A stretch of 64,000 nucleotides of DNA from Escherichia phage IrisVonRoten: sequence record MZ501075; one strand, given 5' to 3'. Made by a program: the position numbers and the translations under genes. The notes beneath the pieces are model-generated. The model was given only the letters and a program-made list of their open reading frames with translations. It did not search any database and was not told the DNA's origin. Positions within the stretch are counted from its first letter, which is position 1; each line of letters starts with the position of its first letter. Below, piece by piece: positions 16,031 through 30,857 of this stretch.

Positions 16031-16669
16031 ATGACCACTCGTATTTCTAAAACTCGTGCTCTAGCAACTATCAAATCTCTGGAAGCTAAAATCCGTAAAG
16101 CTACTGAACAGCAGCTTCTGATCGCTGTTGGTGAAGGTAAGGATAAAAACCAGGTTGTAGTTGGCGCTGCAATCGAAGTAGCTGATCTGTCTACTCGTAT
16201 TAAGACTGATTTCCAGTCTCTGCTGGATATGATGTCCCAGCGTGATCGTATCAAAGCTGCTCTGATTAAGAGCAATGCGGAAACAATCGTTGAGATTGGC
16301 TCTCGTAAGATGACTGTTGCGGAAGCAATTGAAGCTAAGCGTTCTATGGAGCTTAAAGCTCAGCTGCTGGCTAACATGCGTAAGCAGTTCCATGCCGCTA
16401 CGGTTAAGTTTAATACGCAGAAAGCACAGTTTGATGCTAAATATGAGCGTTTGCAGGATAGCATGGCTACCCGCGATAAGAAAACTTCCGAAGATGAAGT
16501 TAAAATGCAGCTCAACCTGCTGGAACTCAAGAATACTCCATTCTTGATTGATCCGCTGGAACTGGAAAAGCTGATTAAGCAGCATGACGAGGAATATCAG
16601 GACTTTGCAACAAATGTTGACTTTGTTCTGTCCGAGTCTAACGCCTCTACCTTCATTGAAGTAGAGTAA
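16031..16669 (+). CDS. hypothetical coiled-coil protein (212 aa)
   Basis: ORF after RBS aaggaag; large antisense ORF 16061..16810 judged spurious. Confidence 0.5.
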   Translation: MTTRISKTRALATIKSLEAKIRKATEQQLLIAVGEGKDKNQVVVGAAIEVADLSTRIKTDFQSLLDMMSQRDRIKAALIKSNAETIVEIGSRKMTVAEAIEAKRSMELKAQLLANMRKQFHAATVKFNTQKAQFDAKYERLQDSMATRDKKTSEDEVKMQLNLLELKNTPFLIDPLELEKLIKQHDEEYQDFATNVDFVLSESNASTFIEVE

Positions 16670-17052
16670 TAATTTAAAAGCTAGTAAATCGGTAGACGAA
16701 AGCCCAAGCATCTTACCTCGCAGCAGCGGTTGAAATACGAGGTTAAATAAGACCGCTGACCATACTATAAAGTATAATCTATTGGAGATTATGTTTATTA
16801 CATCAGACATTTAATCTGACACGTAAAAACAAAGCGTCGTTGATATTACCGACACAACTTCAAAGATCAACATTTAAGTATGAAAGCTGAAAAGTTTAAA
16901 GAACTCAAACTTCTAAACTTCTAAAGCTAAAAGATGCAAAGTATTCGTTGATGATTCAAACCCTAGATCAAAGGTACATGGCTCATAAGATATGGCCTGT
17001 GGCGCCTCTAGGCTGTTTATCGGTTTACTAGTTTCACAATTTAAAAATGTAT

Positions 17053-18603: not shown

Positions 18604-18826
18604 ATATTCATAAATTAGAGAACAGCGAGCCGATTACGCTGAGTGCAGAATCCCAACCGGAGCGCATTGAATAGAGTCGGTGGGTTAGTTGGAAAACTAG
18701 TACACAGGGGGCGGCAATCCCGGTTAGTGGCTAGAACGTGTAAAATGGGGCGTCTGAAACCTCTCCCCTAAACTCTTCTTTAATTTACTGATAGTGGGGT
18801 GTGGAAATCACTTATGTAGTAACACT

Positions 18827-18899
18827 GCCGATCTAGTATAAAACGGTATTATCAAGCCGTAACTGGTGGAAGATGTAGGTTCGAATCCTACGGTCGGTA
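18827..18899 (+). tRNA. tRNA-like gene; canonical acceptor and T-arm, anticodon arm unresolved
   Basis: Acceptor gccgatc/ggtcggt; T-arm gtagg-ttcgaat-cctac. Confidence 0.45.
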
Positions 18900-19401
18900 A
18901 GAACTGGATAACTGGTGCTTTTAATGTAAAAGCTTCCGAGGTTAGTTGCGCACTGCCTAAACCACGCGGTAGTTGGTTCCAGACTAACCAACCAGTCTGC
19001 TGAATAGTTTTATTACGATTTAACTATGTCCAGGCTAAAGAAGAACTTTAGAAGGTATTCTAGGATAGTGAAGTTCTTTCTCCATATCGGAGTAGTTTTT
19101 CAAACTATCCACAAAGTGGGAAATGCTGGCATGAGAGATGCCACTAATGGTGCACAATAGCACAGGTAATTCGCGATAACTCCTGTTGAGTAGCAGCAAA
19201 AAGGTGGGGAGTCATGACCCTAACCTAACCGAGTCCTCAGTATACCGCAGGACATAACCACTAAGTCACCTTGACTTAAACTGGAAAATAATAGACGTTA
19301 CTGTATTTTGTCTTGAAATACTTAATGAGTGAGACTTATGACTCTCCCGGTATCGTCTGTATTTTTAAGAGTTTTTACGAGAGTTCTTAAAAATACTTAA
19401 A

Positions 19402-19473
19402 CGGGGTGTAGTCTAAGGGAGAGGCAGGAGTCTTCTAAATTCCTTTATGCAGGTTCGAATCCTGTCACCTCGG
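19402..19473 (+). tRNA. tRNA-Arg (anticodon TCT)
   Basis: Acceptor cggggtg/cacctcg, T-arm gcagg-ttcgaat-cctgt, anticodon loop cttctaa, encoded CCA. Confidence 0.65.
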
Positions 19474-19510
19474 CCAATTTTATTAACTGTAACTAAAACA
19501 AAGGAAATAT

Positions 19511-20458
19511 ATGTCTAATACTAAAAATATGAAAGAACTGACTTCTGAGCAAAAAGTAATTCGCACTATTAAACGTTGGAGTATTGGTGCTGTAGTTGGT
19601 TTAGCAGGTTTAATCCTAGCTTTTAATTCATATACTATTGTTTCTGATGGTACGGTTAAAACCCAAACATTTCTAGGTAAAGTAGATCCTAACCCAGTAT
19701 TACCTGGTTTCCATCTTGTAAACCCATTTGCATCTTTCGATACTTTTAGTACAAAAGATATTGCTGTAAAATTAGATAAACTTCAGGTTCCTAGCCAGGA
19801 TAAGTTTAAATCCACTGTTGACCTGACTGTTATGTTGCAGTTTGATGGTTCTAAGGCACCGATCAACCGTATTAATGCGGGTACTCAAGATCAGGCTCTA
19901 GATAAGTATGTAACTGAAAAATTACTGTCTACTATTCGTGAGTTTGGTAAGTCTGTACCTAAAGCACAAGATTTGTTTGATGCTAAAATTCAAGCACAAT
20001 TGCAAACTGCAATTCAACAGGAAGTTGAAGAGTATGCACGCCCCTATGGTTACACAGTTAAGCAAGTGTTCCTTCAGGATATTACATTGCCACCGGTAAT
20101 TATGGAACAGGTACAGAATACCAAAGTTCGCGAAGAACAAGTTAATGCTGCGAAAGCTGAATTAGCTCGCGTTGAACAAGAAGCACAGCAGAAGGTTAAA
20201 CAAGCAGAAGCAGATCGTGAAGCTCGTAACAACCAAGCTATTGCAAACGAACGTGATGCAGATGCTAAACTGTATGCAGCTAAGAAAGAAGCTGAAGCTA
20301 ACGCTGCTCTGCAACGTACCATTACTCCTGAGATGATTCGCTGGAAGCAACTAGAAGTTGAAATGATTCGTGCTCAGAAGTATCAAGGTGGTGTACCGCA
20401 GACTGTGGTTGGCACTGGTTATGATGGCCAGATGATTATGGATATGCGTAACAAGTAA
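19511..20458 (+). CDS. SPFH/band-7 (prohibitin/HflC-like) membrane protein
   Basis: N-terminal TM helix then SPFH-like core; C-terminal coiled-coil. Confidence 0.6.
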   Translation: MSNTKNMKELTSEQKVIRTIKRWSIGAVVGLAGLILAFNSYTIVSDGTVKTQTFLGKVDPNPVLPGFHLVNPFASFDTFSTKDIAVKLDKLQVPSQDKFKSTVDLTVMLQFDGSKAPINRINAGTQDQALDKYVTEKLLSTIREFGKSVPKAQDLFDAKIQAQLQTAIQQEVEEYARPYGYTVKQVFLQDITLPPVIMEQVQNTKVREEQVNAAKAELARVEQEAQQKVKQAEADREARNNQAIANERDADAKLYAAKKEAEANAALQRTITPEMIRWKQLEVEMIRAQKYQGGVPQTVVGTGYDGQMIMDMRNK

Positions 20459-20482
20459 TACCCACACGTAATATTCGAAGTA

Positions 20483-20518
20483 AGCCCTGCGTTCCCTGGA
20501 GAGCGCAGGGCTTTTCTG
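20483..20518 (+). terminator. Rho-independent terminator
   Basis: gccctgcg..cgcagggc hairpin then TTTTCTG. Confidence 0.6.
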
Positions 20519-20534
20519 TATTTAAGATAAGAGA

Positions 20535-20572
20535 AAAGCCCCTAAGTCTTTCGACTAGGGGCTTTTTATTAT
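20535..20572. terminator. bidirectional terminator hairpin
   Basis: agcccctag..ctaggggct flanked by T-tracts on both strands. Confidence 0.6.
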
Positions 20573-20579
20573 TGGTTCT

Positions 20580-20774
20580 TTAGAACCATATACTCTTGTT
20601 ACAGCAACCACCCATACGGGAGGCCAATCTTGACTGAAAATCTACTCTAGGGGGCAGGATAAGAGTAGGCTTAAAGGCAAAGGGATTGAACGCCGGTATT
20701 TGTGTAAACATTGCTGGAGAGCAACAACGTGCTACAGGCATTGGGCAGCACGAAACAGATTTTCTGCAACACAT
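20580..20774 (-). CDS. Cys-rich small protein (64 aa, 9 Cys)
   Basis: Strong RBS taaggagg upstream on minus strand. Confidence 0.45.
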   Translation of the reverse strand: MCCRKSVSCCPMPVARCCSPAMFTQIPAFNPFAFKPTLILPPRVDFQSRLASRMGGCCNKSIWF

Positions 20775-20783
20775 AATTCCTCC

Positions 20784-21200
20784 TTAGGAGTTATTACCAC
20801 CATTTTGAGCTTTTGCAACTTGGCTTTGGCAGAAGCTATTAAACTTACCCATAAGTGATACAAGCTGCTTCCCATCCTCTGTCTTTGCGAAGTCTTCGAA
20901 AAGGGCTAGTACTGCTTGTCCTTCCGTAGAAACCTGCGGTTGTTGGGTTTGCTGCTGAACTTGCTGCTGAGGCACCTGTTGCTGCATTTGTTGAGGCATT
21001 TGCGACTGCCCGCTCATTTGCTGCATCATTTGCATAGGACTCACACTTCCAGGGTTTTGCTGGAAGTGTTGCTGCATCTGTTGCGCTTCTGCTAAACGCT
21101 GTTGCAACTGTTGTAGGTAAGGATTATCCAGACCCGGAACGGGCTGCTGGGAGCCCATTGGTTGATTAAATCCGTTGTTTACAAAACCATATTTACTCAT
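20784..21200 (-). CDS. Gln-rich low-complexity protein
   Basis: 138 aa, long Q/M-rich repeats. Confidence 0.5.
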   Translation of the reverse strand: MSKYGFVNNGFNQPMGSQQPVPGLDNPYLQQLQQRLAEAQQMQQHFQQNPGSVSPMQMMQQMSGQSQMPQQMQQQVPQQQVQQQTQQPQVSTEGQAVLALFEDFAKTEDGKQLVSLMGKFNSFCQSQVAKAQNGGNNS

Positions 21201-21221
21201 AATGGGCTCCTCCCCTTAATT

Positions 21222-22202
21222 TTAAGCCGGCAGTTTAGCCTGCAGACCAGCCAGAGTCTGAGTGATAGCACCAAGACTTACAGCGATTTGATTAATTACC
21301 TGACCGTTAGCACCACTACCTGCAGCGATTGCTTCGCGCAGACGGCATTCATTCAGTTCGTCCTGGATACGTGCAGTAGTTACACCAGCGATTGCAGTCT
21401 GAAGCTCACAGCAACATTCAGCAAGCTGACGTTCGATAGCGTTCTGGTTAGCACACATCTGAGCCTGAACAGCGGCAAACTGGTTGTTGGTCTGAATAGA
21501 CTGCTGGAAAGCAATCTGAGCAGAGTCAAACTTATCTTGAGCACGTGCGATCTGGTTAGCAGCGAAAGATTGATCCATCTGACGAGAAAGATCGAATTGA
21601 CCCTGAATAACGTTACGAGTTTCAGCACAGATCTGGTTTGACAGATTAGCACCTGTACCATAGATAGTAGTCAGAACTTGCTGAGTGCTAGCAGCTTGAG
21701 CAGCTCCCACACCGTTTACTGCGCTTAGAACAGCCCCAGTGCCCTGGTTAGCTTCTGTACGAGTAGTATTGATTGCAGCTAGAATACTTGCAGTATCTTG
21801 GTTAGAAAGGATCGCGTCCACAGCAGTCCCTTCAGCGGCAACGCCAGCACCACGGCCAAAACCACCAAAACCACCAAATCCGCCCGTTAATAGAGCACCG
21901 ATTAGGATAGCTCCGAATAGACCCATACCTTCTCCACCGAAAGCACTTGCGTTAGCTGGGAATGCACCCATGCCAGGGAAGCCGTTAGTAAATACGTTTA
22001 CTGGTTCTTGCATTTTATGTTTTCCATATTTATGACAATGTTCATCATAGTCATCTTCTTCATCTTTATCATCGTGTTCACGATGTTCTTCTTCGTAGGC
22101 TTTGACTTTCTCCCACTTTTTCTTATCTGATTCCTCGTGACGGTGCAGTTCTGCTGCTACGCTAGCGACGGTTTCAGGACTCTTAGCTACTTCTTCTGTC
22201 AT
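21222..22202 (-). CDS. Gly-rich membrane-associated protein with acidic/His-rich N-terminus
   Basis: Start set at MTEEV after RBS aggaggtg; GGFGGFGGFGRG segment and TM stretch. Confidence 0.5.
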   Translation of the reverse strand: MTEEVAKSPETVASVAAELHRHEESDKKKWEKVKAYEEEHREHDDKDEEDDYDEHCHKYGKHKMQEPVNVFTNGFPGMGAFPANASAFGGEGMGLFGAILIGALLTGGFGGFGGFGRGAGVAAEGTAVDAILSNQDTASILAAINTTRTEANQGTGAVLSAVNGVGAAQAASTQQVLTTIYGTGANLSNQICAETRNVIQGQFDLSRQMDQSFAANQIARAQDKFDSAQIAFQQSIQTNNQFAAVQAQMCANQNAIERQLAECCCELQTAIAGVTTARIQDELNECRLREAIAAGSGANGQVINQIAVSLGAITQTLAGLQAKLPA

Positions 22203-22409
22203 TTTTTGACACCTCCTAGTATATAGAAAATGTGTGTCTCTTTGATCACTCATCCATAACATATACTTTACACTACCCTGGCAAAAATGTCAAGGGGTCT
22301 TTAAAAATTGCCCCCAGATTTTTAGTGGGGTCACAAATTTCGGTCCTGACCACTTACCTGCTACCCTTAAGCACCCTGTGATTTTCCTCTAAAAAGTTAA
22401 AAAATTCAA

Positions 22410-22438
22410 TTGCTTGAATGCTAAATTCTCTGTATAAT
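22410..22438 (+). promoter_or_regulatory. T5-type early promoter
   Basis: ttgcttgaatgctaaattctctgtataat. Confidence 0.55.
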
Positions 22439-22468
22439 ATATTTATAAATTTGAGAGAGGAATCTAGT

Positions 22469-22987
22469 ATGACTGTTGATGAACTAACAGAACACCTCTT
22501 ATCTAGAGGGTTTGATGCAGATAAATATCATTGCTGGTTAAGCCCGGAAGGATGGCTAACAGTACCATTGTATGACTTCTCTGGGATGTTGAGAGGCTAT
22601 CAGACGTATAATCCTTCTGCTCCAAAAGGTCATGGTAAATCTCCTTTTGAAGCTAAGTATTTTACTTATTCTACTACACAGTGTGTATGGGGGCTGGAAA
22701 CTCTCAATGGGGATGAAAAAGTAGTATTGGTTGCGGAATCTGTATTTAAGGCTGTAGCATTACATAACGCTGGTTATCCAGCCCTGGCAATGTTGGGTTC
22801 TTCTCCAGGAAAAGCGTTGTTAAAGCAATTGAAATTACTACCTTTTAAATTGGTAGCTGTTGGGGATAATGATCCTGCTGGTGAAAAATTTGCTAGACAA
22901 TTAAATGGATTTGTTTCTCCTGTAGATGTGGATGAGATGTCTACCGAAAACTTGAAAAATTTTCTTGCTATGAAGCTAAATTTCTAA
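22469..22987 (+). CDS. Toprim-domain-like protein
   Basis: VVLVAESVFKA...VAVGDNDPAG (E ... DxD Toprim-like); start at ATG after RBS gagagagg. Confidence 0.45.
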   Translation: MTVDELTEHLLSRGFDADKYHCWLSPEGWLTVPLYDFSGMLRGYQTYNPSAPKGHGKSPFEAKYFTYSTTQCVWGLETLNGDEKVVLVAESVFKAVALHNAGYPALAMLGSSPGKALLKQLKLLPFKLVAVGDNDPAGEKFARQLNGFVSPVDVDEMSTENLKNFLAMKLNF

Positions 22988-22993
22988 TATAAT
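22965..22993 (+). promoter_or_regulatory. T5-type promoter embedded in 3' end of preceding CDS, driving tRNAs
   Basis: ttgctatgaagctaaatttctaatataat. Confidence 0.5.
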
Positions 22994-23008
22994 ATATCTT
23001 ATAAATTC

Positions 23009-23094
23009 GGAAGAATAGCATAACGGTATTGCAGCAGATTGCTAATCTGTCGGTTTGAAATATAGCCTTGTGGGTTCGATTCCCACTTCTTCCG
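23009..23094 (+). tRNA. tRNA-Ser (anticodon GCT), long variable arm
   Basis: Acceptor ggaagaa/ttcttcc, T-arm gtggg-ttcgatt-cccac, anticodon loop ttgctaa, encoded CCA. Confidence 0.65.
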
Positions 23095-23103
23095 CCAAAT
23101 TCT

Positions 23104-23178
23104 GGTTCTCAAGCTCATATGGTATGAGCACCCGGCTCATAACCGGAAGGTACGTAGGTTCGAATCCTCGGGGAGCCA
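23104..23178 (+). tRNA. tRNA (anticodon CAT; Met or Ile2)
   Basis: Acceptor ggttctc/gggagcc, D-arm gctc..gagc, anticodon loop ctcataa; T-stem imperfect. Confidence 0.55.
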
Positions 23179-23202
23179 CCATCTTGATTAGAGAGGTTAC
23201 AA

Positions 23203-23391
23203 GTGGAACTATACCTAGTTTGTGTTGTGTTTATTCCAGATAGGGAATACCCGGATGAATATAAAAAAGGATATAGGTTAGCTAGGGCTACCTCTGAAGC
23301 TCAGGCTATGGATAAAGTGGCAGATTATATGATTACGGTAGAAAACGTACACTATATCGACTCCCTTGAAGCCTCAAAAGTAATTGAATAA
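23203..23391 (+). CDS. hypothetical protein (62 aa)
   Basis: ORF track. Confidence 0.3.
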   Translation: MELYLVCVVFIPDREYPDEYKKGYRLARATSEAQAMDKVADYMITVENVHYIDSLEASKVIE

Positions 23392-23400
23392 GGAAACTAT

Positions 23401-23586
23401 ATGTCTAAGTTTCAAGAACTCAAGCAAGAGCTAGAAGAATGTGCCTGCCCTGAATGTCGGGGGATTGGAGAAAGTTCTGATGCAGAAGCAGGGGATACTT
23501 TTTGCAATATCTGGGTTTGCCCTACATGCAAAGGCACAGGCATTAATCCTACCTGTGGTATTTCTCTAGATATTGAACGAGGTTGA
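23401..23586 (+). CDS. zinc-ribbon small protein (CPECRG..CPTCKG)
   Basis: Two CxxC pairs. Confidence 0.4.
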   Translation: MSKFQELKQELEECACPECRGIGESSDAEAGDTFCNIWVCPTCKGTGINPTCGISLDIERG

Positions 23587-23688
23587 TACCCGTGAAACTA
23601 AAAGATTATTATATTGGTTGGTTTGTAGGATTAGTAGTAGGGTTTTCTCTAGGCTATAATATGTATCAACTAATAAACTGATTACATG

Positions 23689-23762
23689 GGGGGTGTAATC
23701 GAATTGGCATAGGTACTGGACTTAAAATTCAGGTTTTGTGGGTTCGAATCCCACCACCCCTA
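23689..23762 (+). tRNA. tRNA, anticodon tentatively TAA (Leu) but class-I length
   Basis: Acceptor gggggtg/cacccct, T-arm gtggg-ttcgaat-cccac, anticodon loop cttaaaa. Confidence 0.5.
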
Positions 23763-23940
23763 CCAACTTAAGGAAATAAGATGTATAGACATCCACCTCC
23801 GCCAACACGTCGTTCTAGGGAAGTCATCCTCATGGAATTGACGAAAAACTTCAAGGCGACCCTTGAGGATAGAGACTTAGGCACAGATGAAGACGTTGAT
23901 TTCATCTGTAAACTATTAAAAATGAAACTGGAGAAACAAC

Positions 23941-24147
23941 ATGGCTAATCCTGAAATTACCATGCAACGATTCATGGCTAAAGGCATGATAGCCGAGGCA
24001 GGCATTGAACAAGAAGTAAAAAGTTATTACGAACAGATTAAGGATATTATAGACTCTGCTAAAAACACCGGAGAAAAAGAACACGGTGCGGCAATTATGG
24101 CTATAACTCTTATTAGTCTAGACTTGGCCGAAGAATCCGGAGTTTAG
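23941..24147 (+). CDS. hypothetical protein (68 aa)
   Basis: ORF track. Confidence 0.4.
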   Translation: MANPEITMQRFMAKGMIAEAGIEQEVKSYYEQIKDIIDSAKNTGEKEHGAAIMAITLISLDLAEESGV

Positions 24148-24177
24148 CTCCTCCAAACAGAATTTTTAAAAATGTAC

Positions 24178-24207
24178 TTGCCTTTTGCTTTAAATCTCTG
24201 ATATAAT
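24178..24207 (+). promoter_or_regulatory. T5-type early promoter
   Basis: ttgccttttgctttaaatctctgatataat. Confidence 0.5.
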
Positions 24208-24237
24208 AGTTATATAAATTGATGAAGGAGTTAACTA

Positions 24238-24513
24238 ATGCAAAATCGTGTTGTAGCAACTGGTATTGAAAGTGCAATCTGTAAATCCTGGGAAGACTGG
24301 GAAGGTGAGATTGAGTGGCTCTATCTCTATAACGTAGAACTCCTGCCGGAAGTTAAAGCTAAATGTGTTGAAGCTGGCATGGCTCCAGATGCAAAAGCTG
24401 ATATTGATATTTCAATGCCTGAACTTAAAGGTCGTGTAGTTACCGTTAGTAATGAGGGCGAAGAAGTTTTTGAACTTCCGTTCTCCTTAACTGTCACTCC
24501 TAAGTTCGACTAA
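24238..24513 (+). CDS. hypothetical protein (91 aa)
   Basis: ORF after RBS aaggag. Confidence 0.45.
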   Translation: MQNRVVATGIESAICKSWEDWEGEIEWLYLYNVELLPEVKAKCVEAGMAPDAKADIDISMPELKGRVVTVSNEGEEVFELPFSLTVTPKFD

Positions 24514-24549
24514 CTAATACAGCACTGAGCAAGTTCTTCAAAATCTGAC

Positions 24550-24578
24550 TTGCTCAGTGCCTTAAAACTTGATATAAT
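24550..24578 (+). promoter_or_regulatory. T5-type promoter driving tRNA cluster
   Basis: ttgctcagtgccttaaaacttgatataat. Confidence 0.5.
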
Positions 24579-24641
24579 AGTTATCTAATTTGGAAACATA
24601 TTTAAAAGTGTTTAAACAAGTATTTGAATGCTTCTAAATAT

Positions 24642-24726
24642 GGGCGTTTATTCCGTAAGTGGTAGCGGAGGGGATTGTAAATCCCCGGTCATTGCGACTC
24701 GAGTGGTTCGACTCCATTAACGCCCA
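24642..24726 (+). tRNA. tRNA-Tyr (anticodon GTA), long variable arm
   Basis: Acceptor gggcgtt/aacgccc, anticodon arm gggga-ttgtaaa-tcccc, encoded CCA. Confidence 0.65.
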
Positions 24727-24737
24727 CCAAATTTAAT

Positions 24738-24809
24738 ACACCTATCGTCTAAAGGCTAGGACATCAGGATTTCAATCTGAGAATCGGAGTTCAATTCTCC
24801 GTGGGTGTA
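24738..24809 (+). tRNA. tRNA-Glu (anticodon TTC)
   Basis: Acceptor acaccta/tgggtgt, T-arm cggag-ttcaatt-ctccg, anticodon loop atttcaa. Confidence 0.65.
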
Positions 24810-24820
24810 CCAATTTCTGC

Positions 24821-24894
24821 ATTCCTAGAGTGTTACTGGACAGCATGTCGGTCTCCAAAACCGTACGGTCTAGGTTCGAGTCCTAGTAGGTTTG
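24821..24894 (+). tRNA. tRNA-Trp-like (anticodon CCA) with mismatched acceptor stem
   Basis: T-arm ctagg-ttcgagt-cctag; anticodon loop ctccaaa; acceptor has two U-U mismatches. Confidence 0.4.
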
Positions 24895-24903
24895 CCAAAA
24901 TTT

Positions 24904-24975
24904 GCACCTTTAGCTGAGATGGATTAGCGCTTGCCTGAAGAGCTTGAGAGGTTCGTTCGATACGAACAGGGTGCA
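24904..24975 (+). tRNA. tRNA (tentatively Phe, GAA)
   Basis: Acceptor gcacctt/agggtgc, T-arm gttcg-ttcgata-cgaac; anticodon stem imperfect. Confidence 0.45.
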
Positions 24976-24980
24976 CCAAA

Positions 24981-25259
24981 TTGAAGGAGATGCTGATGCA
25001 TCCTGAAAACTTCTTTATTTACTGCGCGGATAAGTCGCTGAAACGTAGAATTAACAAAGTCTATCATTATCGTGCTAGTCAACAGCCTTATGTATACGCT
25101 TTTGACGGCGATCACATTCCACTAGAACAATTATCCTGTGATTACATGATATTGAAGAACTTTGACGAGACAAAGATCTCAAGCGTTTATAATCGACAAA
25201 ATCCATTAACGTGGAAATATAAGAAGAAAAAGAAAGGCATCAAATCCTTAAAAATGTAG
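24981..25259 (+). CDS. hypothetical protein (92 aa)
   Basis: ORF track. Confidence 0.35.
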   Translation: MKEMLMHPENFFIYCADKSLKRRINKVYHYRASQQPYVYAFDGDHIPLEQLSCDYMILKNFDETKISSVYNRQNPLTWKYKKKKKGIKSLKM

Positions 25260-25288
25260 TTGCTTAGTTTCCAAAAGTTCTATATAAT
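25260..25288 (+). promoter_or_regulatory. T5-type promoter
   Basis: ttgcttagtttccaaaagttctatataat. Confidence 0.5.
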
Positions 25289-25336
25289 AATTACATAAAT
25301 TGAACTGGAGAAGCAACATGACAGAACAAGATAAAC

Positions 25337-25409
25337 CGACCGTTGGCTGAATGGCTTAGGCGAAGGATTGCAAATCCTTTTTATGTGAGTTCAAATCTCA
25401 TGCGGTCGT
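25337..25409 (+). tRNA. tRNA-Cys (anticodon GCA)
   Basis: Acceptor cgaccgt/gcggtcg, anticodon arm aagga-ttgcaaa-tcctt, T-loop ttcaaat. Confidence 0.65.
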
Positions 25410-25414
25410 CCAAT

Positions 25415-25555
25415 TTGCTGAAAGAATTGTTAAATCAATTCAGGCACGCGTAGGAACACTGTCTCCGTAATTGAAAGATGAGGCACGGTTTGGAGAGGTA
25501 TGCCGCTACACGCTACGGTGCTAACTCCGTCTAGGTGAAAATCCTAGTCAGCAAT
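25415..25555 (+). ncRNA. approx. 140-nt tRNA-like structured RNA (possible tRNA with insertion)
   Basis: 5' ttgctga pairs with 3' tcagcaa; T-arm-like ctagg-tgaaaat-cctag adjacent to 3' end. Confidence 0.3.
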
Positions 25556-25564
25556 ATAAATTTA

Positions 25565-25644
25565 GGGTCGTTAGCCAAGCGGTTTGGCGGCGGATTGTTA
25601 ATCCGTGTCGAAAGACAACGTAGGTTCGAATCCTACACGGCCCG
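25565..25644 (+). tRNA. tRNA-Asn (anticodon GTT) with unusually long variable region
   Basis: Acceptor gggtcgt/acggccc, anticodon loop ttgttaa, T-arm gtagg-ttcgaat-cctac. Confidence 0.5.
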
Positions 25645-25749
25645 CCAAATTCTGTGTAGAGTTAAGTAAACCGGTAGCCAACCAGCTATCATTGCTGACA
25701 TCGAATTCAGCCACAGATACCATTTTCATTAATAACTGAGGAAACAAGC

Positions 25750-25935
25750 ATGTCCAAGAATGTGATTGCGCAGCTAGAAGTTCATCGTGATAGTACTATC
25801 AACAATATTGAAGTTGAGAAGAAATACATCGAAGAACTTAAACATGATATACTAGTAAGTCTCAATCGTCTTAATGTACGAAAAGAGTTTCTTAAAGAAC
25901 TTAATGCAGCTATTGAAAAACTCAAAGCTGAGTAA
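25750..25935 (+). CDS. hypothetical protein (61 aa)
   Basis: ORF after RBS tgaggaaa. Confidence 0.4.
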   Translation: MSKNVIAQLEVHRDSTINNIEVEKKYIEELKHDILVSLNRLNVRKEFLKELNAAIEKLKAE

Positions 25936-25944
25936 ATAAATTAT

Positions 25945-26018
25945 GCGACCGGGGCTGGCTTGGTAATGGTACTCCCCTGTCACGGGAGGGAATGTGGGTT
26001 CAAATCCCATCGGTCGCG
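25945..26018 (+). tRNA. tRNA-Asp (anticodon GTC)
   Basis: Acceptor gcgaccg/cggtcgc, anticodon arm ctccc-ctgtcac-gggag, T-loop ttcaaat. Confidence 0.65.
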
Positions 26019-26039
26019 CCAAATAAGGTAGGTTAGCTA

Positions 26040-26198
26040 TGGAACGTAGGGAGTTTACTCCAGAAGAGATAGAGCAGATAAAAGAATCTGCTATGAAAAA
26101 TGCTAGAATATCTCTGTCACTGGAAGGTATCATTATTAGTGATGTAAACTTTGAAAAAATCAAAGCCATAGCTGATGAACTGGAAAAAGTAATTTAAT
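26040..26198 (+). CDS. hypothetical small protein (52 aa)
   Basis: Manual ORF MERREFTPEE...; below track cutoff. Confidence 0.35.
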
Positions 26199-26271
26199 AC
26201 ATCCATAGCTCAATGGTTAGAGCTACCGCCTCTTAAGCGGAGGGTTCTAGGTTCAAGTCCTAGTGGGTGTA
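26199..26271 (+). tRNA. tRNA-Lys (anticodon CTT)
   Basis: Acceptor acatcca/tgggtgt, T-arm ctagg-ttcaagt-cctag, anticodon loop ctcttaa. Confidence 0.6.
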
Positions 26272-26300
26272 CCAAATTAAACTAGCACGAGAAATATGCT

Positions 26301-26648
26301 ATGATTAATGCTAAAGAAGAGTTGTTACTTGCCCTAAAGAATACTAAGTCTGAAGTTAAGTGTATTAAGATAGAATTCGGTTATTATGGGGACAAAGAAG
26401 TTTGGGTATTACCAGTAGGTTATACAGAAAAAGATATTGAAGATTTTCTAAATAACCTAGACTTTAAATATGATTCTGGTTTTGGTGGACAATTGCTTTA
26501 TGGTAACGTATGGTTTACTGATGGAACTTGGTTAGAACGTGGTGAATATGATGGTTCTGAATGGTGGGAGTATAAGACTACGCCAGCAATCCCAGAAGAA
26601 TGCCGAACAATTAATGGTGAAGTAGATAATACTTTACGGTTAAACTAA
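26301..26648 (+). CDS. hypothetical protein (115 aa)
   Basis: ORF track. Confidence 0.45.
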   Translation: MINAKEELLLALKNTKSEVKCIKIEFGYYGDKEVWVLPVGYTEKDIEDFLNNLDFKYDSGFGGQLLYGNVWFTDGTWLERGEYDGSEWWEYKTTPAIPEECRTINGEVDNTLRLN

Positions 26649-26770
26649 TAAAATTTCAGTGCAGAACACGGAGCTAGCAATTCGGAAGTGCTGACTCATG
26701 ATAAGCTGCCTATGTACTTGCTAAGCGGTCGTGTCCAAGACTCGGACTCTTGCACTGAAAACAATCAAAC

Positions 26771-26891
26771 ATTCTAGCGTGGTTGATGGGGAAACCAGCT
26801 TGGCGAGGGCAGAAGCTCGTTCGATTCGAGTGAAAGAATGGTTCTCGTAAGTCCGCACAAGTGATAACAGGTTCGAGTCCTGTCTAGAATG
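26771..26891 (+). ncRNA. approx. 120-nt tRNA-like element (acceptor and T-arm canonical, large internal insertion)
   Basis: 5' attctag pairs 3' ctagaat; T-arm acagg-ttcgagt-cctgt; internal about 50 nt extra. Confidence 0.3.
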
Positions 26892-27040
26892 ACACTATAA
26901 AGTTTACTTATTATGTAGGTTCCGATAGATCGGCGGGTCTATTCTGGCATTTAAGAGAGGTCTCGCAAACTTCTTTGTCAGCCGTGGGGTTGGTAGCCTC
27001 CAGGTGGCCTACACAATAAGTAAATTTATTAAAAATTCAT

Positions 27041-27069
27041 TTGCTATTTTGCTTAATTCTCTGTATAAT
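27041..27069 (+). promoter_or_regulatory. T5-type early promoter
   Basis: ttgctattttgcttaattctctgtataat. Confidence 0.55.
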
Positions 27070-27101
27070 ATATCTTATAAAGTGAAGAGAAGGAAAGCTA
27101 A

Positions 27102-27260
27102 ATGAAGTATAAAATTGCATCAGTATTCATGTGTACTTGGGTTATTCCTATAGTAATAGTAGGGTTTAACATAGATAACTTTTCTATCATAGAAAAGTTA
27201 TTAGGACTAAGTACAGGCTTTACAATGCTAGGATTAAGCATGTTGTGGCTGAAGAAATAA
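27102..27260 (+). CDS. small membrane protein (52 aa)
   Basis: ATG after RBS aaggaaag; hydrophobic. Confidence 0.4.
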   Translation: MKYKIASVFMCTWVIPIVIVGFNIDNFSIIEKLLGLSTGFTMLGLSMLWLKK

Positions 27261-27264
27261 TTTT

Positions 27265-27338
27265 CTCCGATTAGCTCAATTGGCTAGAGTACACCGTTTG
27301 GGGCGGTGGGGTTGAAGGTTCGAGTCCTTCATTGGAGA
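27265..27338 (+). tRNA. tRNA-Pro (anticodon TGG)
   Basis: Acceptor ctccgat/attggag, anticodon arm caccg-tttgggg-cggtg, T-arm gaagg-ttcgagt-ccttc. Confidence 0.65.
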
Positions 27339-27348
27339 CCAAACAATT

Positions 27349-27420
27349 GCGGGTGGGAGGCATAGAGTTCTTCTTAGTCTCATAAGCTAAGTAAGTCCAG
27401 GGCAGTACTGGAACCCGCTA
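27349..27420 (+). ncRNA. tRNA-sized tRNA-like element with non-canonical T-loop and 9-nt anticodon-like loop
   Basis: Acceptor gcgggt/acccgc; loop ggcagta in T position. Confidence 0.3.
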
Positions 27421-27444
27421 CCATTTTAATAGGGGATTTCGAAA

Positions 27445-27609
27445 TGAAAGTATTTCGATTAGTAGTAAGTGATCGACGTTCTAGCAAAGATCGTTCGAAG
27501 TATACCTTAGCCCATTATGGTAAAGATGAAAATGAAGTAATGGCTGAATTTGGTATTAACCATCCTTACTTAAAAGTCTACTCTATTAAGGAAGTTTATG
27601 CTTATTAAC
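27445..27609 (+). CDS. hypothetical small protein (54 aa)
   Basis: Manual ORF after RBS aggggatttcgaaATG. Confidence 0.3.
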
Positions 27610-28071
27610 AGGGTACTTCAAGCCCTGGATCTTCCAAGGCACTTTACTATTACTGACTCCTTAATACGTAGGTATATGGAGAAGTATAACGAAATATCTG
27701 GTAAAGAAGGTAAACTAAAGTCCTCGGAGTTTAAGTTCTGTTATAGAATGGCAGCGTTAAACCTGCTGAAGTATAAAAGGGAGCATAAAATCCCTATAAC
27801 AGAAGGGTTTGTATATGTAATAGGTAATCCAGCATGGCCTGGACTCTATAAGATAGGTATGACAGTAGACGTAAATGAAAGACTGTCTAGTTATCAAACA
27901 TATTCTCCCTATCGTGATTACAAGTTATACCATTTTAGATTCTCCTCGGACAAGAGAAGAACTGAAAAAGCATTACATAGTCTTCTGAAAGACTACAAAG
28001 TATCAGGAGAATGGTTTGAAGTACCTCTGTTAGACGCTTTCAAACTATTAGTAGAGAATTTGGATTGCTAG
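27598..28071 (+). CDS. T5orf172 (MUG113-like) domain protein
   Basis: GFVYVIGNPAWPGLYKIGMT...SGEWFEV pattern. Confidence 0.55.
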   Translation: MLINRVLQALDLPRHFTITDSLIRRYMEKYNEISGKEGKLKSSEFKFCYRMAALNLLKYKREHKIPITEGFVYVIGNPAWPGLYKIGMTVDVNERLSSYQTYSPYRDYKLYHFRFSSDKRRTEKALHSLLKDYKVSGEWFEVPLLDAFKLLVENLDC

Positions 28072-28146
28072 CTCAACTGGATAAGAGTAGCGGACCTTTA
28101 ATCCGTCAGTTCTGGGTTCGAATCCCAGGCAATCCACCAAATTTTT
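28072..28146 (+). tRNA. tRNA-Lys (anticodon TTT)
   Basis: Acceptor ggattgc/gcaatcc, anticodon loop cctttaa, T-arm ctggg-ttcgaat-cccag. Confidence 0.65.
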
Positions 28147-28156
28147 GCTCGGTTAG

Positions 28157-28227
28157 TTTAATGGGAGAACCCCGTCTTTACACGGCGGTTGCGATAGTTC
28201 GATTCTATCACCGAGTACCAAGTACAA
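28157..28227 (+). tRNA. tRNA-Val (anticodon TAC)
   Basis: Acceptor gctcggt/accgagt, anticodon stem ccgtc/ggcgg, loop tttacac. Confidence 0.6.
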
Positions 28228-28245
28228 GAAATTTCAAAAACTCAT

Positions 28246-28274
28246 TTGCTTAATGCTTAATTTCTTGTTATAAT
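28246..28274 (+). promoter_or_regulatory. T5-type promoter driving structured RNA and tRNAs
   Basis: ttgcttaatgcttaatttcttgttataat. Confidence 0.55.
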
Positions 28275-28289
28275 ATTTATATAAATTGA

Positions 28290-28510
28290 TGAGGAGAAAT
28301 CCTCATCATAGTTCACTAAGGTATTAGCTCGACCTAGGACTGGCTGCCAAAAAGCACGATCCCTACGATTTGGGAGAAGTTCTAGATTAGTCCACTAGAT
28401 TCAGCGGCAACTGAATAGTGTATCGGGTTTGCGAGATGACGTAGTTCCTTCCGCTCGAAGCGAAGGTGCTGTAGTTACGCCGAGCTAATAGCCTTAGTAA
28501 ACTAAAGAAT
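28290..28510 (+). ncRNA. ORF-free structured transcript (leader or small RNA)
   Basis: Hairpin gatgaggagaaatcctcatc; long-range pairing attagctcg (28323) with cgagctaat (28480). Confidence 0.3.
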
Positions 28511-28512
28511 TT

Positions 28513-28588
28513 GGGGAATGGGTCTGCATGGAGTGGACACCTCGCTTGCACCGAGGACATCAGAACGGTTCGATTCCGTTATTCTCCA
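28513..28588 (+). tRNA. tRNA-Ala (anticodon TGC)
   Basis: Acceptor ggggaat/attctcc, anticodon arm cctcg-cttgcac-cgagg, T-arm aacgg-ttcgatt-ccgtt. Confidence 0.6.
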
Positions 28589-28596
28589 CCAAATAC

Positions 28597-28670
28597 GCGT
28601 GATTGATGGAATGGGCATACATACCGTCCTTAGAAGTCGGGTTTTGAGGGTTCGAATCCCTTGTCACGCA
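28597..28670 (+). tRNA. tRNA, anticodon tentatively TAG (Leu) but class-I length
   Basis: Acceptor gcgtgat/gtcacgc, T-arm gaggg-ttcgaat-ccctt, anticodon loop cttagaa. Confidence 0.5.
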
Positions 28671-28785
28671 CCAAATTTGATGGTCAGAGTAAATTAAACC
28701 TACTATCTCGGTTGAGCTGTTTTAATGGGTTCGAATCCCAGCGAGGCGTAACTGCCTGGTGTGATAGAGGCATCATCTTATTATT

Positions 28786-28873
28786 GGAAGAGCAAATCGA
28801 ATTGGCGACGAAAACCGCTTGGAAAGCGGCTGACTGGTAAAACGGCTTGAGAGTTCAAATCTCTCCTCTTCCG
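28786..28873 (+). tRNA. tRNA-Ser (anticodon GGA), long variable arm
   Basis: Acceptor ggaagag/ctcttcc, anticodon loop ttggaaa, T-arm gagag-ttcaaat-ctctc. Confidence 0.6.
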
Positions 28874-28895
28874 CCAAACAATTGAGGTAATAATA

Positions 28896-29243
28896 ATGCT
28901 AGCAAAAGATAAAGCTCTAGAGTTTTTAGCATCTTTAGATGAAGATAAGATTATAGATGCAGCTGAAAAAGCTGGAATGCCTGATTTAACATATCTGGAA
29001 CGTGCTATTATTGCTCGTGATAAACTACAGAAAGAATTTGCTATTGCTCAGGAGGAGTTTTATACTCGCTATAACGCTCTTACTAAGCAAATTGAAAATG
29101 AGTGTTCTCATACTTGGGGAGTAACAGAAAACCTAGGTAATGATCACGATGGCTGGTCTAAAGTAAAAATTACCTATTATCATCGTAGGACTTGTAAAAT
29201 CTGTGGAAAAGTAGAAAACTTCACTAGTACGAGTGACTATTAG
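28896..29243 (+). CDS. hypothetical protein with C-terminal CxxC pairs
   Basis: ORF track. Confidence 0.4.
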   Translation: MLAKDKALEFLASLDEDKIIDAAEKAGMPDLTYLERAIIARDKLQKEFAIAQEEFYTRYNALTKQIENECSHTWGVTENLGNDHDGWSKVKITYYHRRTCKICGKVENFTSTSDY

Positions 29244-29256
29244 TATAATAAATACT

Positions 29257-29343
29257 AGAAGATAGGACGTAGTGGTACGTAACTGGTCTTGAAAACCAGC
29301 CCGCTGTAGTGATACGGTGATGGTTCGACTCCATTATCTTCTG
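29257..29343 (+). tRNA. tRNA-Ser (anticodon TGA), long variable arm
   Basis: Acceptor agaagat/atcttct, anticodon arm ctggt-cttgaaa-accag, T-arm gatgg-ttcgact-ccatt. Confidence 0.65.
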
Positions 29344-29362
29344 CCAACTTATAGGGTAATAT

Positions 29363-29545: not shown

Positions 29546-29552
29546 AAATTCT

Positions 29553-29996: not shown

Positions 29997-30014
29997 TTAA
30001 ATAGGAAATAAAAT

Positions 30015-30215: not shown

Positions 30216-30216
30216 A

Positions 30217-30848: not shown

Positions 30849-30857
30849 CCAAACAAT

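What the first reader, a model, noticed from the sequence alone, without database searches (positions are those of the whole stretch)
20580..22202. Minus-strand trio of low-complexity proteins (Cys-rich, Gln-rich, Gly-rich)
Three consecutive minus-strand genes in an otherwise plus-strand region encode a 9-Cys small protein, a poly-Q/M-rich protein, and a GGFGGFGGF-containing protein with an acidic His-rich N-terminus and a TM segment. The compositions are unusual for phage early genes. They are flanked by a bidirectional terminator and a possible promoter near 22290-22320.
Basis: seen in the sequence. Interest (0 to 1): 0.5.

Follow-up and report, generated by a model that had tools for sequence, protein, structure and literature searches.

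The report
Mobile three-gene accessory cassette in T5
The three odd-looking minus-strand genes are real: they form a self-contained, dispensable accessory operon (T5 genes T5.077-079) that has been swapped among unrelated phages, and it encodes a probably membrane-anchored stalk protein with an invariant triple-cysteine motif plus two small partner proteins whose function nobody has tested.

Summary
The window is a T5-like phage (Tequintavirus), in the tRNA region. Three minus-strand genes lie in a plus-strand region: C 21222-22202 (326 aa), B 20784-21200 (138 aa) and A 20580-20774 (64 aa, 8 Cys, not 9). Each has a strong ribosome-binding site. A consensus sigma-70 promoter precedes them and a bidirectional hairpin terminator follows. 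They equal T5.077/078/079, annotated as hypothetical, with promoter P12 and terminator ter1.

All three are under purifying selection. The same promoter-C-B-A-terminator cassette, antisense to its neighbours, also occurs in distant Demerecviridae-sized contigs, lambdoid phages (between Q and the lysis genes), an N4-like coliphage and Pseudomonas phage RSP. It is cleanly deleted in DT57C, and a published CRISPRi-ART screen of T5 scored all three genes "Not Fit".

C belongs to a large phage-only superfamily (429 clusters) with a Gly-zipper hydrophobic segment, a helix of about 190 residues and an invariant CCC motif. It matches no Pfam, PDB, NCBIfam or PADLOC family. The Q-, M- and His-rich stretches are variable linkers, and the conserved parts are not low-complexity.

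Best reading: a moron-type accessory operon encoding an envelope-associated complex, probably used in phage-phage or phage-host conflict. The function is inferred, not shown.

The parts
22265..22293 (-). Sigma-70-type promoter (= T5/BF23 'P12'): -35 TTGACA at 22293-22288, 17-bp spacer, -10 TAAAGT at 22270-22265. An A/T-rich stretch lies upstream, to about 22315.
   Evidence: The consensus scan gives 10 of 12 matches. The T5 and BF23 records annotate it as promoter P12. A near-identical sequence (TTTTAAAGACCCCTTGACATTTTTGC...GTAAAGTATA) lies upstream of a cassette whose C protein is only 36% identical (L035).
21222..22202 (-). Gene C (T5.077 homologue, 326 aa). In order: an N-terminal helix (aa 12-41); an acidic His-rich variable linker; the EPVNVFTNG motif; a Gly-zipper hydrophobic segment; and helices of about 190 aa carrying the CCC motif.
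   Evidence: PHROG 8119, E = 5.6e-197. dN/dS = 0.16. AlphaFold2 with 86 sequences predicts helices at 12-41 (pLDDT 92-97), 137-273 and 276-323.
21855..21926 (-). Gly-zipper hydrophobic (putative transmembrane) segment of C, aa 93-116: MGLFGAILIGALLTGGFGGFGGFG.
   Evidence: It is the best hydrophobic window across the family, and G/L positions are invariant or nearly so. No membrane insertion experiment exists.
21408..21416 (-). Codons for the invariant Cys263-Cys264-Cys265 (CCC) motif of C.
   Evidence: These are the only invariant columns in the 86-sequence alignment. The motif is present in 108 of the 145 best profile hits. The plus strand reads ACAGCAACA.
20784..21200 (-). Gene B (T5.078 homologue, 138 aa). 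It has a conserved helix (NPYLQQLQQRLAEAQ), a variable Gln/Met/Pro-rich linker and a conserved C-terminal domain with one invariant Cys.
   Evidence: PHROG 7894, E = 6e-79. dN/dS = 0.14. Homologues follow C in lambdoid, N4-like, RSP-like and distant T5-like contigs.
20580..20774 (-). Gene A (T5.079 homologue, 64 aa). It is a small Cys- and Pro-rich protein that starts MCC, has four CC pairs, and has no signal peptide or lipobox.
   Evidence: dN/dS = 0.35 in frame against about 1 in shifted frames. Small ORFs that start MCC or MC and carry CC pairs occupy the third position of the cassette in L009, L029, L030, L031, L032, L034 and L035. The gene is annotated in T5 and BF23.
20530..20572 (.). 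Bidirectional intrinsic terminator (= 'ter1'): a G+C-rich hairpin flanked by A and T runs. It ends the cassette and also faces the convergent SPFH gene.
   Evidence: Folding energies are -21.3 and -23.5 kcal/mol on the two strands, with z = -4.7 and -4.1. It is annotated as an efficient bidirectional rho-independent terminator in T5 and BF23. Equivalent hairpins follow the cassette in L034 and L035.

Best explanation
The trio is a real, self-contained accessory operon of the 'moron' type. A host sigma-70 promoter (P12) drives three translationally close-packed genes (C, then B, then A), and a bidirectional terminator ends the unit.

C is the T5 representative of a large phage-specific protein superfamily. 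Its defining features are a glycine-zipper hydrophobic anchor, a very long alpha-helical stalk (a putative coiled coil) and an invariant CCC motif. In the enterobacterial branch, C has gained a charged N-terminal domain and travels with two small partner proteins that lack signal peptides. B has a helix, a disordered linker and a small domain with one invariant Cys. A has CC pairs.

The cassette is dispensable for lytic growth in the laboratory and has moved horizontally between unrelated virulent and temperate phages. It always sits as an antisense island.

Inferred mechanism:
- C inserts into the inner membrane and oligomerises through its stalk.
- The oligomer is locked or made functional by the CCC cluster, either as interchain disulfides or as a metal site.
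- C recruits B and A.
- The complex acts at the cell envelope to give a conditional advantage in phage-phage or phage-host conflict, most plausibly a superinfection-exclusion-like or envelope-protective role. It does not act in replication, virion structure or canonical lysis.

Shown: gene reality, operon anatomy, mobility, dispensability and family membership. Inferred: membrane insertion, oligomerisation, the C-B-A complex and the biological role.
For: Identity and anatomy
- The region is 98.7% identical to T5-like phage chee24.
- The genes equal T5.077-079, with P12 and ter1 annotated.
- The promoter and terminator are found by scans and folding, and each gene has a strong SD.

Reality of the genes
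- dN/dS is 0.14-0.35.
- The three-gene order is conserved where C is 35-45% identical.

Mobility and moron behaviour
- The same cassette lies antisense to its neighbours in several settings: lambdoid contigs, between the Q antiterminator and holin/lysozyme/Rz (L009, L030, L031); a G7C/N4-like coliphage next to the virion RNA polymerase gene (L032); the contig L029 and Pseudomonas phage RSP, next to terminase/portal/Mu-F genes; and distant T5-sized contigs (L034, L035).
- The P12-like promoter and the terminator are conserved in L034 and L035.
- The cassette is missing from about half of T5-like records.
- DT57C has a precise deletion that leaves a 3' remnant of gene A.
- In Epseptimavirus, other accessory genes occupy the site.

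Dispensability
- The CRISPRi-ART T5 screen scored T5.077, T5.078 and T5.079 as 'Not Fit' (PMC11879866, supplementary file 16).

Family
- 429 clusters at E <= 1e-3, and 108 of the best 145 carry CCC.
- CCC forms the only invariant columns in 86 sequences.
- PHROGs 8119, 9288 and 16490 are all of unknown function.

Structure
- AlphaFold2 predicts long helices at 137-273 and 276-323 and a confident N-terminal helix.
Against: - No experiment or homology assigns any function. There is no match in Pfam, NCBIfam, PADLOC, PDB sequences, or Foldseek against PDB and BFVD.
- Membrane insertion and topology are unresolved and the indicators conflict.
- The exclusion or conflict role rests only on analogy with other morons and on context.
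- No relative was found in 185,579 bacterial species genomes or in 5,426 complete E. coli genomes. The cassette is therefore rare in prophages, which weakens a lysogen-benefit argument.
- The timing of P12 in infection is unknown. Its discriminator (ATATG) only partly matches the ATATT reported for T5 early promoters (PMC7472727).
Confidence: 0.4

Rival explanations
1. Cytoplasmic metal- or redox-centred complex. The stalk of C faces the cytoplasm. The CCC motif, the single Cys of B and the CC pairs of A together coordinate a metal or thiolate cluster (Zn, Cu(I) or Fe-S) or sense redox state. The cassette would then alter host metal or redox physiology, or use the cluster as a structural staple.
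For: - A and B have no signal peptides, so they should be cytoplasmic.
- Short family members have K/R-free acidic N-tails and one Arg after the hydrophobic segment. This predicts N-out/C-in in 25 cases against 2.
- Cys positions are the most conserved feature.
- Some T5-like C proteins carry HHHHH/acidic runs.
- Ferritin-like genes lie near distant family members.
Against: - The His and Met richness is not conserved outside T5-like phages.
- Adjacent CC and CCC are not classical metal-site spacings, and no metallothionein or metal-binding family matches.
- The stalk has only about 12% charged residues, which is atypical for a cytoplasmic coiled coil.
- The 90-aa N-domain of T5-type C has 12 K/R and would be hard to export, as N-out requires.
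Confidence: 0.15
2. Lysis or membrane-fusion device, like a spanin, holin or fusogen. C would be an i-spanin-like or class-I-fusion-like protein that spans the periplasm, with a fusion-peptide-like GLFGAI segment, a long stalk, a Cys cluster at a helix break and a C-terminal helix. A would be a small Pro- and Cys-rich partner analogous to Rz1.
For: - The architecture resembles Rz: an N-terminal hydrophobic segment, a long helical domain and conserved Cys.
- A is small, Pro-rich and Cys-bearing.
- In lambdoid contigs the cassette abuts the lysis genes.
- There are repeated but sub-threshold profile hits to the fusion-peptide-plus-helix region of influenza HA2 and HEF2, E = 0.07-0.5.
Against: - The cassette is on the opposite strand with its own sigma-70 promoter.
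- The same lambdoid contigs already encode holin, lysozyme and an Rz-family protein (PF03245).
- A has no signal peptide or lipobox.
- C and A match no Pfam holin or spanin family.
- Family members occur in a Clostridium phage, whose host has no outer membrane.
- Knock-down has no fitness effect in T5.
- The HA2 hits are compositional and not significant.
- C lacks the C-terminal membrane anchor of class I fusion proteins.
Confidence: 0.08
3. Virion-associated ejection or pilot protein. C would be packaged and, on infection, would insert its Gly-zipper segment into the host membrane. Its long helices would form a conduit, as the H protein of phiX174 does.
For: - The architecture is shared with phiX174 H (from my own knowledge): an N-terminal Gly-zipper segment followed by a long Gln/Asn-rich helix.
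- Distant family members lie inside head or tail morphogenesis regions (L005, L039, eiAU).
Against:
- The T5 cassette has its own sigma-70 promoter in the tRNA region, far from the late genes.
- It is dispensable.
- It is deleted in DT57C. A paper abstract describes most DT57C structural proteins as nearly identical to those of T5 (PMC4728585, listed).
- A four-band virion proteome of a T5-like phage did not list it, which is very weak evidence.
Confidence: 0.04
4. The ORFs, especially the 64-aa one, are not genes but chance or antisense reading frames in low-complexity DNA.
For: - A has no PHROG or Pfam family.
- Several genome records do not annotate A.
- Nucleotide divergence within A among T5-like phages is low (pS = 0.07), so the dN/dS estimate is noisy.
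Against: - All three ORFs have strong SDs.
- Purifying selection is specific to the reading frame.
- All three ORFs keep their order, and A keeps its MCC/CC signature, in lambdoid, N4-like, RSP-like and distant T5-like phages whose DNA is no longer alignable.
Confidence: 0.01

Closest known systems
T5.077 / T5.078 / T5.079 of phage T5 (NC_005859). These are T5p075-077 in AY734508 and 'ORF 326aa / 138aa / 64aa' in BF23 (AJ604530).
   Same: They are orthologues, 96-98% identical in DNA, with the same order, strand, P12 promoter and ter1 terminator, and the same neighbouring nick site.
   Different: Nothing material differs. The window's phage is closer to chee24 (98.7%). In those records all three are 'hypothetical protein' with no function.
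Phage 'morons': autonomous promoter-gene-terminator accessory units such as lambda bor and lom, or phi80/N15 cor.
   Same: The cassette has its own sigma-70 promoter and terminator. It is inserted between functional modules, present or absent among close relatives, shared between unrelated phages and dispensable.
   Different: It has three genes rather than one. It is also carried by strictly virulent phages (T5-like, N4-like). It is not enriched in sequenced prophages. Its GC3 is close to that of each resident genome, not foreign.
Two-component spanins (lambda Rz/Rz1).
   Same: There is a bitopic protein with a hydrophobic N-proximal segment and a long helical domain with conserved Cys, and an adjacent small Pro-rich, Cys-bearing protein.
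   Different: A has no lipobox or signal peptide. The cassette is not in the lysis cassette and not co-oriented with it. There is no PF03245 match. It coexists with genuine Rz genes. Relatives occur in a Gram-positive phage.
Membrane-acting superinfection-exclusion proteins of virulent and temperate phages (T4 Imm and Sp, T5 Llp, P22 SieA, HK97 gp15).
   Same: These are small, non-essential, membrane-associated proteins, expressed from host-type promoters and patchily distributed. This is the functional class I consider most likely.
   Different: There is no sequence or fold relationship. No exclusion phenotype has been tested. The very long stalk and CCC motif have no counterpart in those proteins.
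phiX174 DNA pilot protein H, and the class I viral fusion subunit influenza HA2.
   Same: The similarity is in gross architecture only: a Gly-rich hydrophobic N-proximal segment (C even contains GLFGAI, as the HA2 fusion peptide does by my own knowledge) followed by a very long helix that must oligomerise.
   Different: There is no significant similarity: hhalign probability 0.1% to H and E >= 0.07 to HA2. C has no C-terminal anchor. It is not known to be in virions.

Membership tests
PHROG 8119 (C) and PHROG 7894 (B), phage protein families of unknown function | Full-length profile match | tested here: met
   C: E = 5.6e-197 over 1-326 of 332. B: E = 6.3e-79 over 1-138 of 139. A matches no PHROG.
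CCC-motif stalk superfamily (defined here; covers PHROGs 8119, 9288 and 16490) | A Gly-zipper hydrophobic segment, a long helix and an invariant CCC about 64 residues from the C-terminus | tested here: met
   A profile of 26 sequences finds 429 clusters at E <= 1e-3, and 108 of the best 145 carry CCC. CCC forms the only invariant columns in 86 sequences. The median distance from CCC to the C-terminus is 64 residues. Distant members match PHROGs 8119, 9288 and 16490.
Moron (autonomous accessory transcription unit) | Own promoter upstream and own terminator downstream | tested here: met
   TTGACA-17-TAAAGT. The hairpin has z = -4.7 and -4.1 with U runs on both strands. Both are annotated in T5 and BF23 and conserved in L034 and L035. 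Promoter activity in vivo was not tested here.
Moron (autonomous accessory transcription unit) | Present or absent among close relatives, and shared with unrelated phages | tested here: met
   About half of T5-like records match only the flanks. DT57C carries a deletion scar. The cassette is present in lambdoid, N4-like and RSP-like phages.
Moron (autonomous accessory transcription unit) | Dispensable for lytic growth | tested here: met
   From the literature: the CRISPRi-ART screen scored T5.077-079 as 'Not Fit' (PMC11879866 supplement). DT57C also lacks the cassette naturally.
Two-component spanin (Rz/Rz1) | An o-spanin with a signal peptide and lipobox Cys | tested here: not met
   A starts MCCRKSVSCCP and has no hydrophobic signal or lipobox. 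The same is true of all A homologues.
Two-component spanin (Rz/Rz1) | Located in the lysis cassette and co-transcribed with it; Pfam Phage_lysis match | tested here: not met
   It is on the opposite strand to holin/lysozyme/Rz in L009, L030 and L031. C has no Pfam hit.
Holins (including T4 T-type, with one transmembrane domain and a large C-terminal domain) | Match to a holin family; position in a lysis cassette | tested here: not met
   No Pfam, NCBIfam or PHROG holin family matches. The cassette is not in a lysis cassette.
Known anti-phage defence systems (PADLOC) | Profile match to a defence protein | tested here: not met
   There were 0 families for C, B, A and their homologues at E <= 1.
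phiX174 H / Microviridae pilot protein | Sequence-profile similarity | tested here: not met
   hhalign probability 0.1%, E = 0.5.
Class I viral fusion protein (HA2-like) | Significant similarity; a C-terminal membrane anchor | tested here: not met
   The best HA2 hit has E = 0.074 and the alignments are compositional. C ends ...LQAKLPA with no hydrophobic segment.
Superinfection-exclusion membrane proteins | Blocks entry or infection by a second phage when expressed | not testable with these tools
   This needs expression and challenge experiments. No homology to Imm, Sp, Llp, Cor or Sie families was detected.
Integral inner-membrane protein | A membrane-spanning segment with a defined topology | tested here: inconclusive
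   In 61 of 114 members the hydrophobic window has a Kyte-Doolittle mean of at least 1.3. Positive-inside counts favour N-out/C-in for short members, 25 against 2. The charged N-domain and the low-charge stalk of the T5 type argue the opposite.

The most novel reading that the evidence does not exclude
The CCC-motif proteins may be a widespread, previously unrecognised class of phage-encoded membrane-active stalk proteins. Their architecture is fusogen- or conduit-like: a fusion-peptide-like Gly-zipper segment, a helix of about 28 nm (187 residues at 0.15 nm each) that could span the periplasm, a Cys cluster at a helix break and a return helix. They could remodel or bridge host membranes, or gate DNA entry. 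In enterobacterial phages this stalk has been packaged with two Cys-bearing partner proteins into a portable three-gene cassette.
Probability: 0.1. Interest if true: 0.75.

Novelty: new variant of a known kind. Interest (0 to 1): 0.45.

Why it matters
T5 is a classic model phage. Yet this block, which has its own mapped promoter and terminator, has stayed 'hypothetical' since the genome was annotated.

Three results turn a compositional curiosity into a defined target:
- The block is a portable three-gene unit shared by T5-like, lambdoid, N4-like and RSP-type phages.
- Its largest protein anchors a phage-only superfamily of several hundred clusters with an invariant CCC motif.
- It matches no curated family.

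If the cassette mediates exclusion or envelope protection, it would add a new protein class to phage-phage conflict systems. It would also matter for cocktail design with T5-like therapeutic phages, about half of which carry it. If the stalk is membrane-active, it would be a new kind of phage membrane effector.

The work also corrects a recurrent mis-annotation of B as 'cAMP-dependent protein kinase catalytic subunit'.

Tried and rejected
- **Curated libraries.** Pfam, NCBIfam, PADLOC and PDB sequence searches with single proteins and profiles gave nothing at or near threshold.
- **Structure prediction.** AlphaFold2 with 26 sequences gave pLDDT 48. With 86 sequences it gave pLDDT 67 but only isolated long helices. 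Foldseek against BFVD and PDB gave no usable match.
- **Gln/Met-rich neighbours.** I asked whether the Gln/Met-rich small proteins next to distant CCC genes (Clostridium phage PMQ04, L005) are homologues of B. hhalign probability was below 1%, so I rejected this. The resemblance is compositional.
- **A as a detached tail of C.** I asked whether A is a detached copy of the Cys- and Pro-rich C-terminal tails fused to 14 of 224 CCC proteins. hhalign probability was below 1%, so this is unsupported and only suggestive.
- **phiX174 H and influenza HA2.** Neither relationship is significant.
- **Microviruses.** The small 'Bacteriophage sp.' scaffolds that matched are fragments of tailed phages, not microviruses.
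- **Prophage search.** I found no relative in 185,579 species genomes (pattern scan) and no blastn match of the lambdoid version in complete E. coli genomes.
- **Literature.** No paper text mentions T5.077-079 or T5p075-077. An accession search gave only prefix false hits. A T5 promoter paper does not cover P12.
- **Foreign GC.** The raised GC of the cassette (46-47% against 39%) is mostly an amino-acid effect. GC3 of C is 0.34 and tracks each resident genome.
- **Link to the SPFH gene.** I rejected this because the cassette occurs without an SPFH neighbour in other phages.
Full report
**What the window is.** The 4-kb neighbourhood is 98.7% identical to Escherichia phage chee24 and 96-97% identical to other Tequintavirus genomes. 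The window plus strand is the reverse of the usual T5 orientation. It carries 25 tRNA genes, all on the plus strand. Apart from ORFs that overlap plus-strand ORFs, all other long ORFs between 8 and 36 kb are also on the plus strand.

**Checking the observation.**
- The three minus-strand ORFs exist as described: C at 21222-22202 (326 aa from the ATG with the best ribosome-binding site), B at 20784-21200 (138 aa) and A at 20580-20774 (64 aa).
- Each has a strong Shine-Dalgarno sequence.
- A has 8 Cys in four CC pairs, not 9. B is 27% Gln with 10 Met. C contains GGFGGFGGF inside a hydrophobic Gly-rich segment, and its N-terminal region is acidic and His-rich.
- A consensus-like sigma-70 promoter (TTGACA-17-TAAAGT, 22293-22265) lies upstream of C.
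- A hairpin with flanking A and U runs at about 20533-20567 folds well on both strands, at -21.3 and -23.5 kcal/mol, with no shuffle as good.
- Manually curated GenBank records of T5, BF23 and Salmonella phage 5 annotate the same things: three hypothetical ORFs (T5.077/078/079; 'ORF 326aa/138aa/64aa'), promoter P12, and a bidirectional terminator ter1. The T5 and BF23 records also annotate a DNA single-chain interruption just beyond it.

**Are they genes?** Yes.
- Among 19 T5-like loci, dN/dS is 0.16 for C, 0.14 for B and 0.35 for A. Shifted frames of A give about 1.
- More decisively, the whole unit recurs where the DNA is no longer alignable. C homologues of 35-45% identity are each followed by a B homologue and then a small ORF that starts MCC or MC and carries CC pairs.

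**Where else the cassette occurs.** It always lies on the strand opposite to its neighbours.
- Three lambdoid contigs, between the Q antiterminator and the holin/lysozyme/Rz genes (L009, L030, L031).
- A G7C/N4-like coliphage contig, beside the virion RNA polymerase gene (L032).
- A 62-kb contig, and the deposited Pseudomonas phage RSP, beside terminase, portal and Mu-F genes.
- Two distant T5-sized contigs (L034, L035). In these the P12-like promoter and a terminator hairpin are also conserved.

**Dispensability.**
- About half of T5-like records match only the flanks.
- DT57C joins the SPFH gene to the primase-like gene and keeps about 35 nt of the 3' end of gene A. This is a deletion scar.
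- Epseptimaviruses carry NMN adenylyltransferase and PnuC genes at the site.
- In the published CRISPRi-ART screen of T5, T5.077, T5.078 and T5.079 are all 'Not Fit' and annotated as unknown (PMC11879866, supplementary files 8 and 16).
- GC3 of the cassette follows each resident genome, so it is not a recent foreign import in any of them.

**What the proteins are.**
- None of the three matches Pfam, NCBIfam or PADLOC. C and B match only PHROGs of unknown function.
- A profile of C finds 429 clusters (50% identity) at E <= 1e-3 among 1.84 billion representatives. Most are 240-290 aa, and 108 of the best 145 carry CCC.
- In an 86-sequence alignment, the three Cys are the only invariant columns.
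- These relatives fall in PHROGs 8119, 9288 and 16490. They occur in tailed phages of Gram-negative and Gram-positive hosts, including Edwardsiella phage eiAU, Aeromonas phage phiWae15 and Clostridium phage PMQ04.
- Typical members start almost directly with the Gly-zipper segment. The charged N-terminal domain of C, including a helix predicted at pLDDT 92-97, is specific to the branch that also carries B and A.
- AlphaFold2 predicts helices at 137-273 and 276-323. These are too long to be stable as a monomer, so I infer oligomerisation.
- B has a conserved N-terminal helix, a linker that varies in length and composition, and a conserved C-terminal domain with one invariant Cys.
- The Gln/Met richness of B and the His and acidic richness of C are therefore linker features of the T5 lineage. 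They are not the conserved core.

**Topology is unresolved.**
- Short family members have acidic, K/R-free N-tails and one Arg after the hydrophobic segment. This favours N-out/C-in in 25 cases against 2. It would put the stalk in the cytoplasm with the signal-less B and A.
- The T5-type N-domain has 12 K/R. The stalk has about 12% charged residues and an Ala/Gln/Thr/Asn-rich composition, more like exported proteins. This favours N-in/C-out.
- The CCC motif could therefore be an interchain disulfide lock or a metal site.

**Mechanism.**
- Shown: a separately promoted and terminated three-gene operon that is conserved as a unit, horizontally mobile and non-essential.
- Inferred: C anchors in the inner membrane, oligomerises and binds B and A. 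The complex gives a conditional advantage at the envelope.
- I favour a conflict role, such as superinfection exclusion or envelope protection, for three reasons. That is what small, dispensable, membrane-associated, independently promoted genes of both virulent and temperate phages usually do. In lambdoid phages the antisense placement between Q and the lysis genes implies expression outside the late programme. The T5 site is an accessory hotspot next to a gene that the CRISPRi-ART authors list as anti-retron.
- I put the whole statement at about 0.4: about 0.8 for the operon and moron anatomy, and about 0.25 for the exclusion-type role.

**Rivals.**
- A cytoplasmic metal or redox complex: 0.15.
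- A lysis or fusion device: 0.08. It is contradicted by strand, promoter, coexisting Rz genes, the absence of a lipobox, Gram-positive relatives and the lack of a fitness effect.
- A virion pilot protein: 0.04.
- A non-coding artefact: 0.01.
- Resemblance to phiX174 H and influenza HA2 is architectural only and not significant.

**Novelty.** The ORFs, the promoter and the terminator are already annotated in T5. The following appear to be new:
- recognition of the trio as a portable cassette across unrelated phage groups;
- the CCC-motif superfamily;
- the separation of conserved cores from low-complexity linkers;
- the deletion scar in DT57C.

No paper text in the searchable library mentions these genes.

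Noticed in passing
window 20482-20513 (+): A strong hairpin (-25 kcal/mol, z = -5.0) ends the SPFH/Band-7 gene (19511-20458). It contains GCGC, and it lies at or beside the site that the T5 and BF23 records annotate as a DNA single-chain interruption ('major' in T5), matched to the consensus 5'-NPu pGCGCN-3'. The equivalent T5 coordinate (39,746 of 121,750) is 32.6% of the genome.
   Followed up: partly
window 22469-22987 (+) (mechanical ORF from 22418): This TOPRIM 'primase-like' gene is T5.076. It is transcribed divergently from the cassette, from an early-type promoter with an ATATT discriminator. The CRISPRi-ART re-annotation lists it as anti-defence ('subverts retron-mediated defense') and Semi-Fit.
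   Followed up: partly
window 20784-21200 (-) and GenBank records of ESCO30/40, HMD-P2 and others: Several deposited genomes annotate B as 'cAMP-dependent protein kinase catalytic subunit'. This is a poly-Gln artefact, because no kinase domain is detected.
   Followed up: yes
L043 (DT57C) 2480-2690; L044 (phage fuchur) 2478-4474: The interval between the SPFH gene and the primase-like gene is an accessory-gene hotspot. In T5 it holds the cassette. In DT57C it holds a 211-bp scar containing the last ~35 nt of gene A. In an Epseptimavirus it holds NMN adenylyltransferase and PnuC genes.
   Followed up: yes
L005 7263-9748; L039 (MT837318) 2446-5197; L040 6001-7105: Distant CCC-family genes sit in a recurring module: one or two Gln/Met/Asn-rich small proteins, the CCC protein, a beta-rich protein of 97-142 aa, and a ferritin-like protein of about 190 aa. 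In two unrelated phage contigs the module lies inside head-morphogenesis regions. All its PHROGs are of unknown function.
   Followed up: partly
P0034, P0270, P0293, L038 4788-5396, L039 3195-3890: A minority (14 of 224) of CCC-family proteins carry a Cys-, Pro- and aromatic-rich C-terminal tail, for example PCPTPAYITCNPW...GCGCC. It resembles protein A in composition, but no significant profile similarity was found.
   Followed up: partly
window 16031-16810: Two long overlapping ORFs lie on opposite strands: 16031-16669 (+), 212 aa, and 16061-16810 (-), 249 aa. Different T5-like records annotate different ones: a plus-strand 'tail fiber protein' in ESCO40 and a minus-strand hypothetical protein in FGS029.
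   Followed up: no
window 18826-32353: There are 25 tRNA genes, all on the plus strand. One is a tRNA-Ser called with anticodon ACT, at 18826-18900. A related record labels a tRNA in the corresponding region 'tRNA-OTHER'.
   Followed up: no
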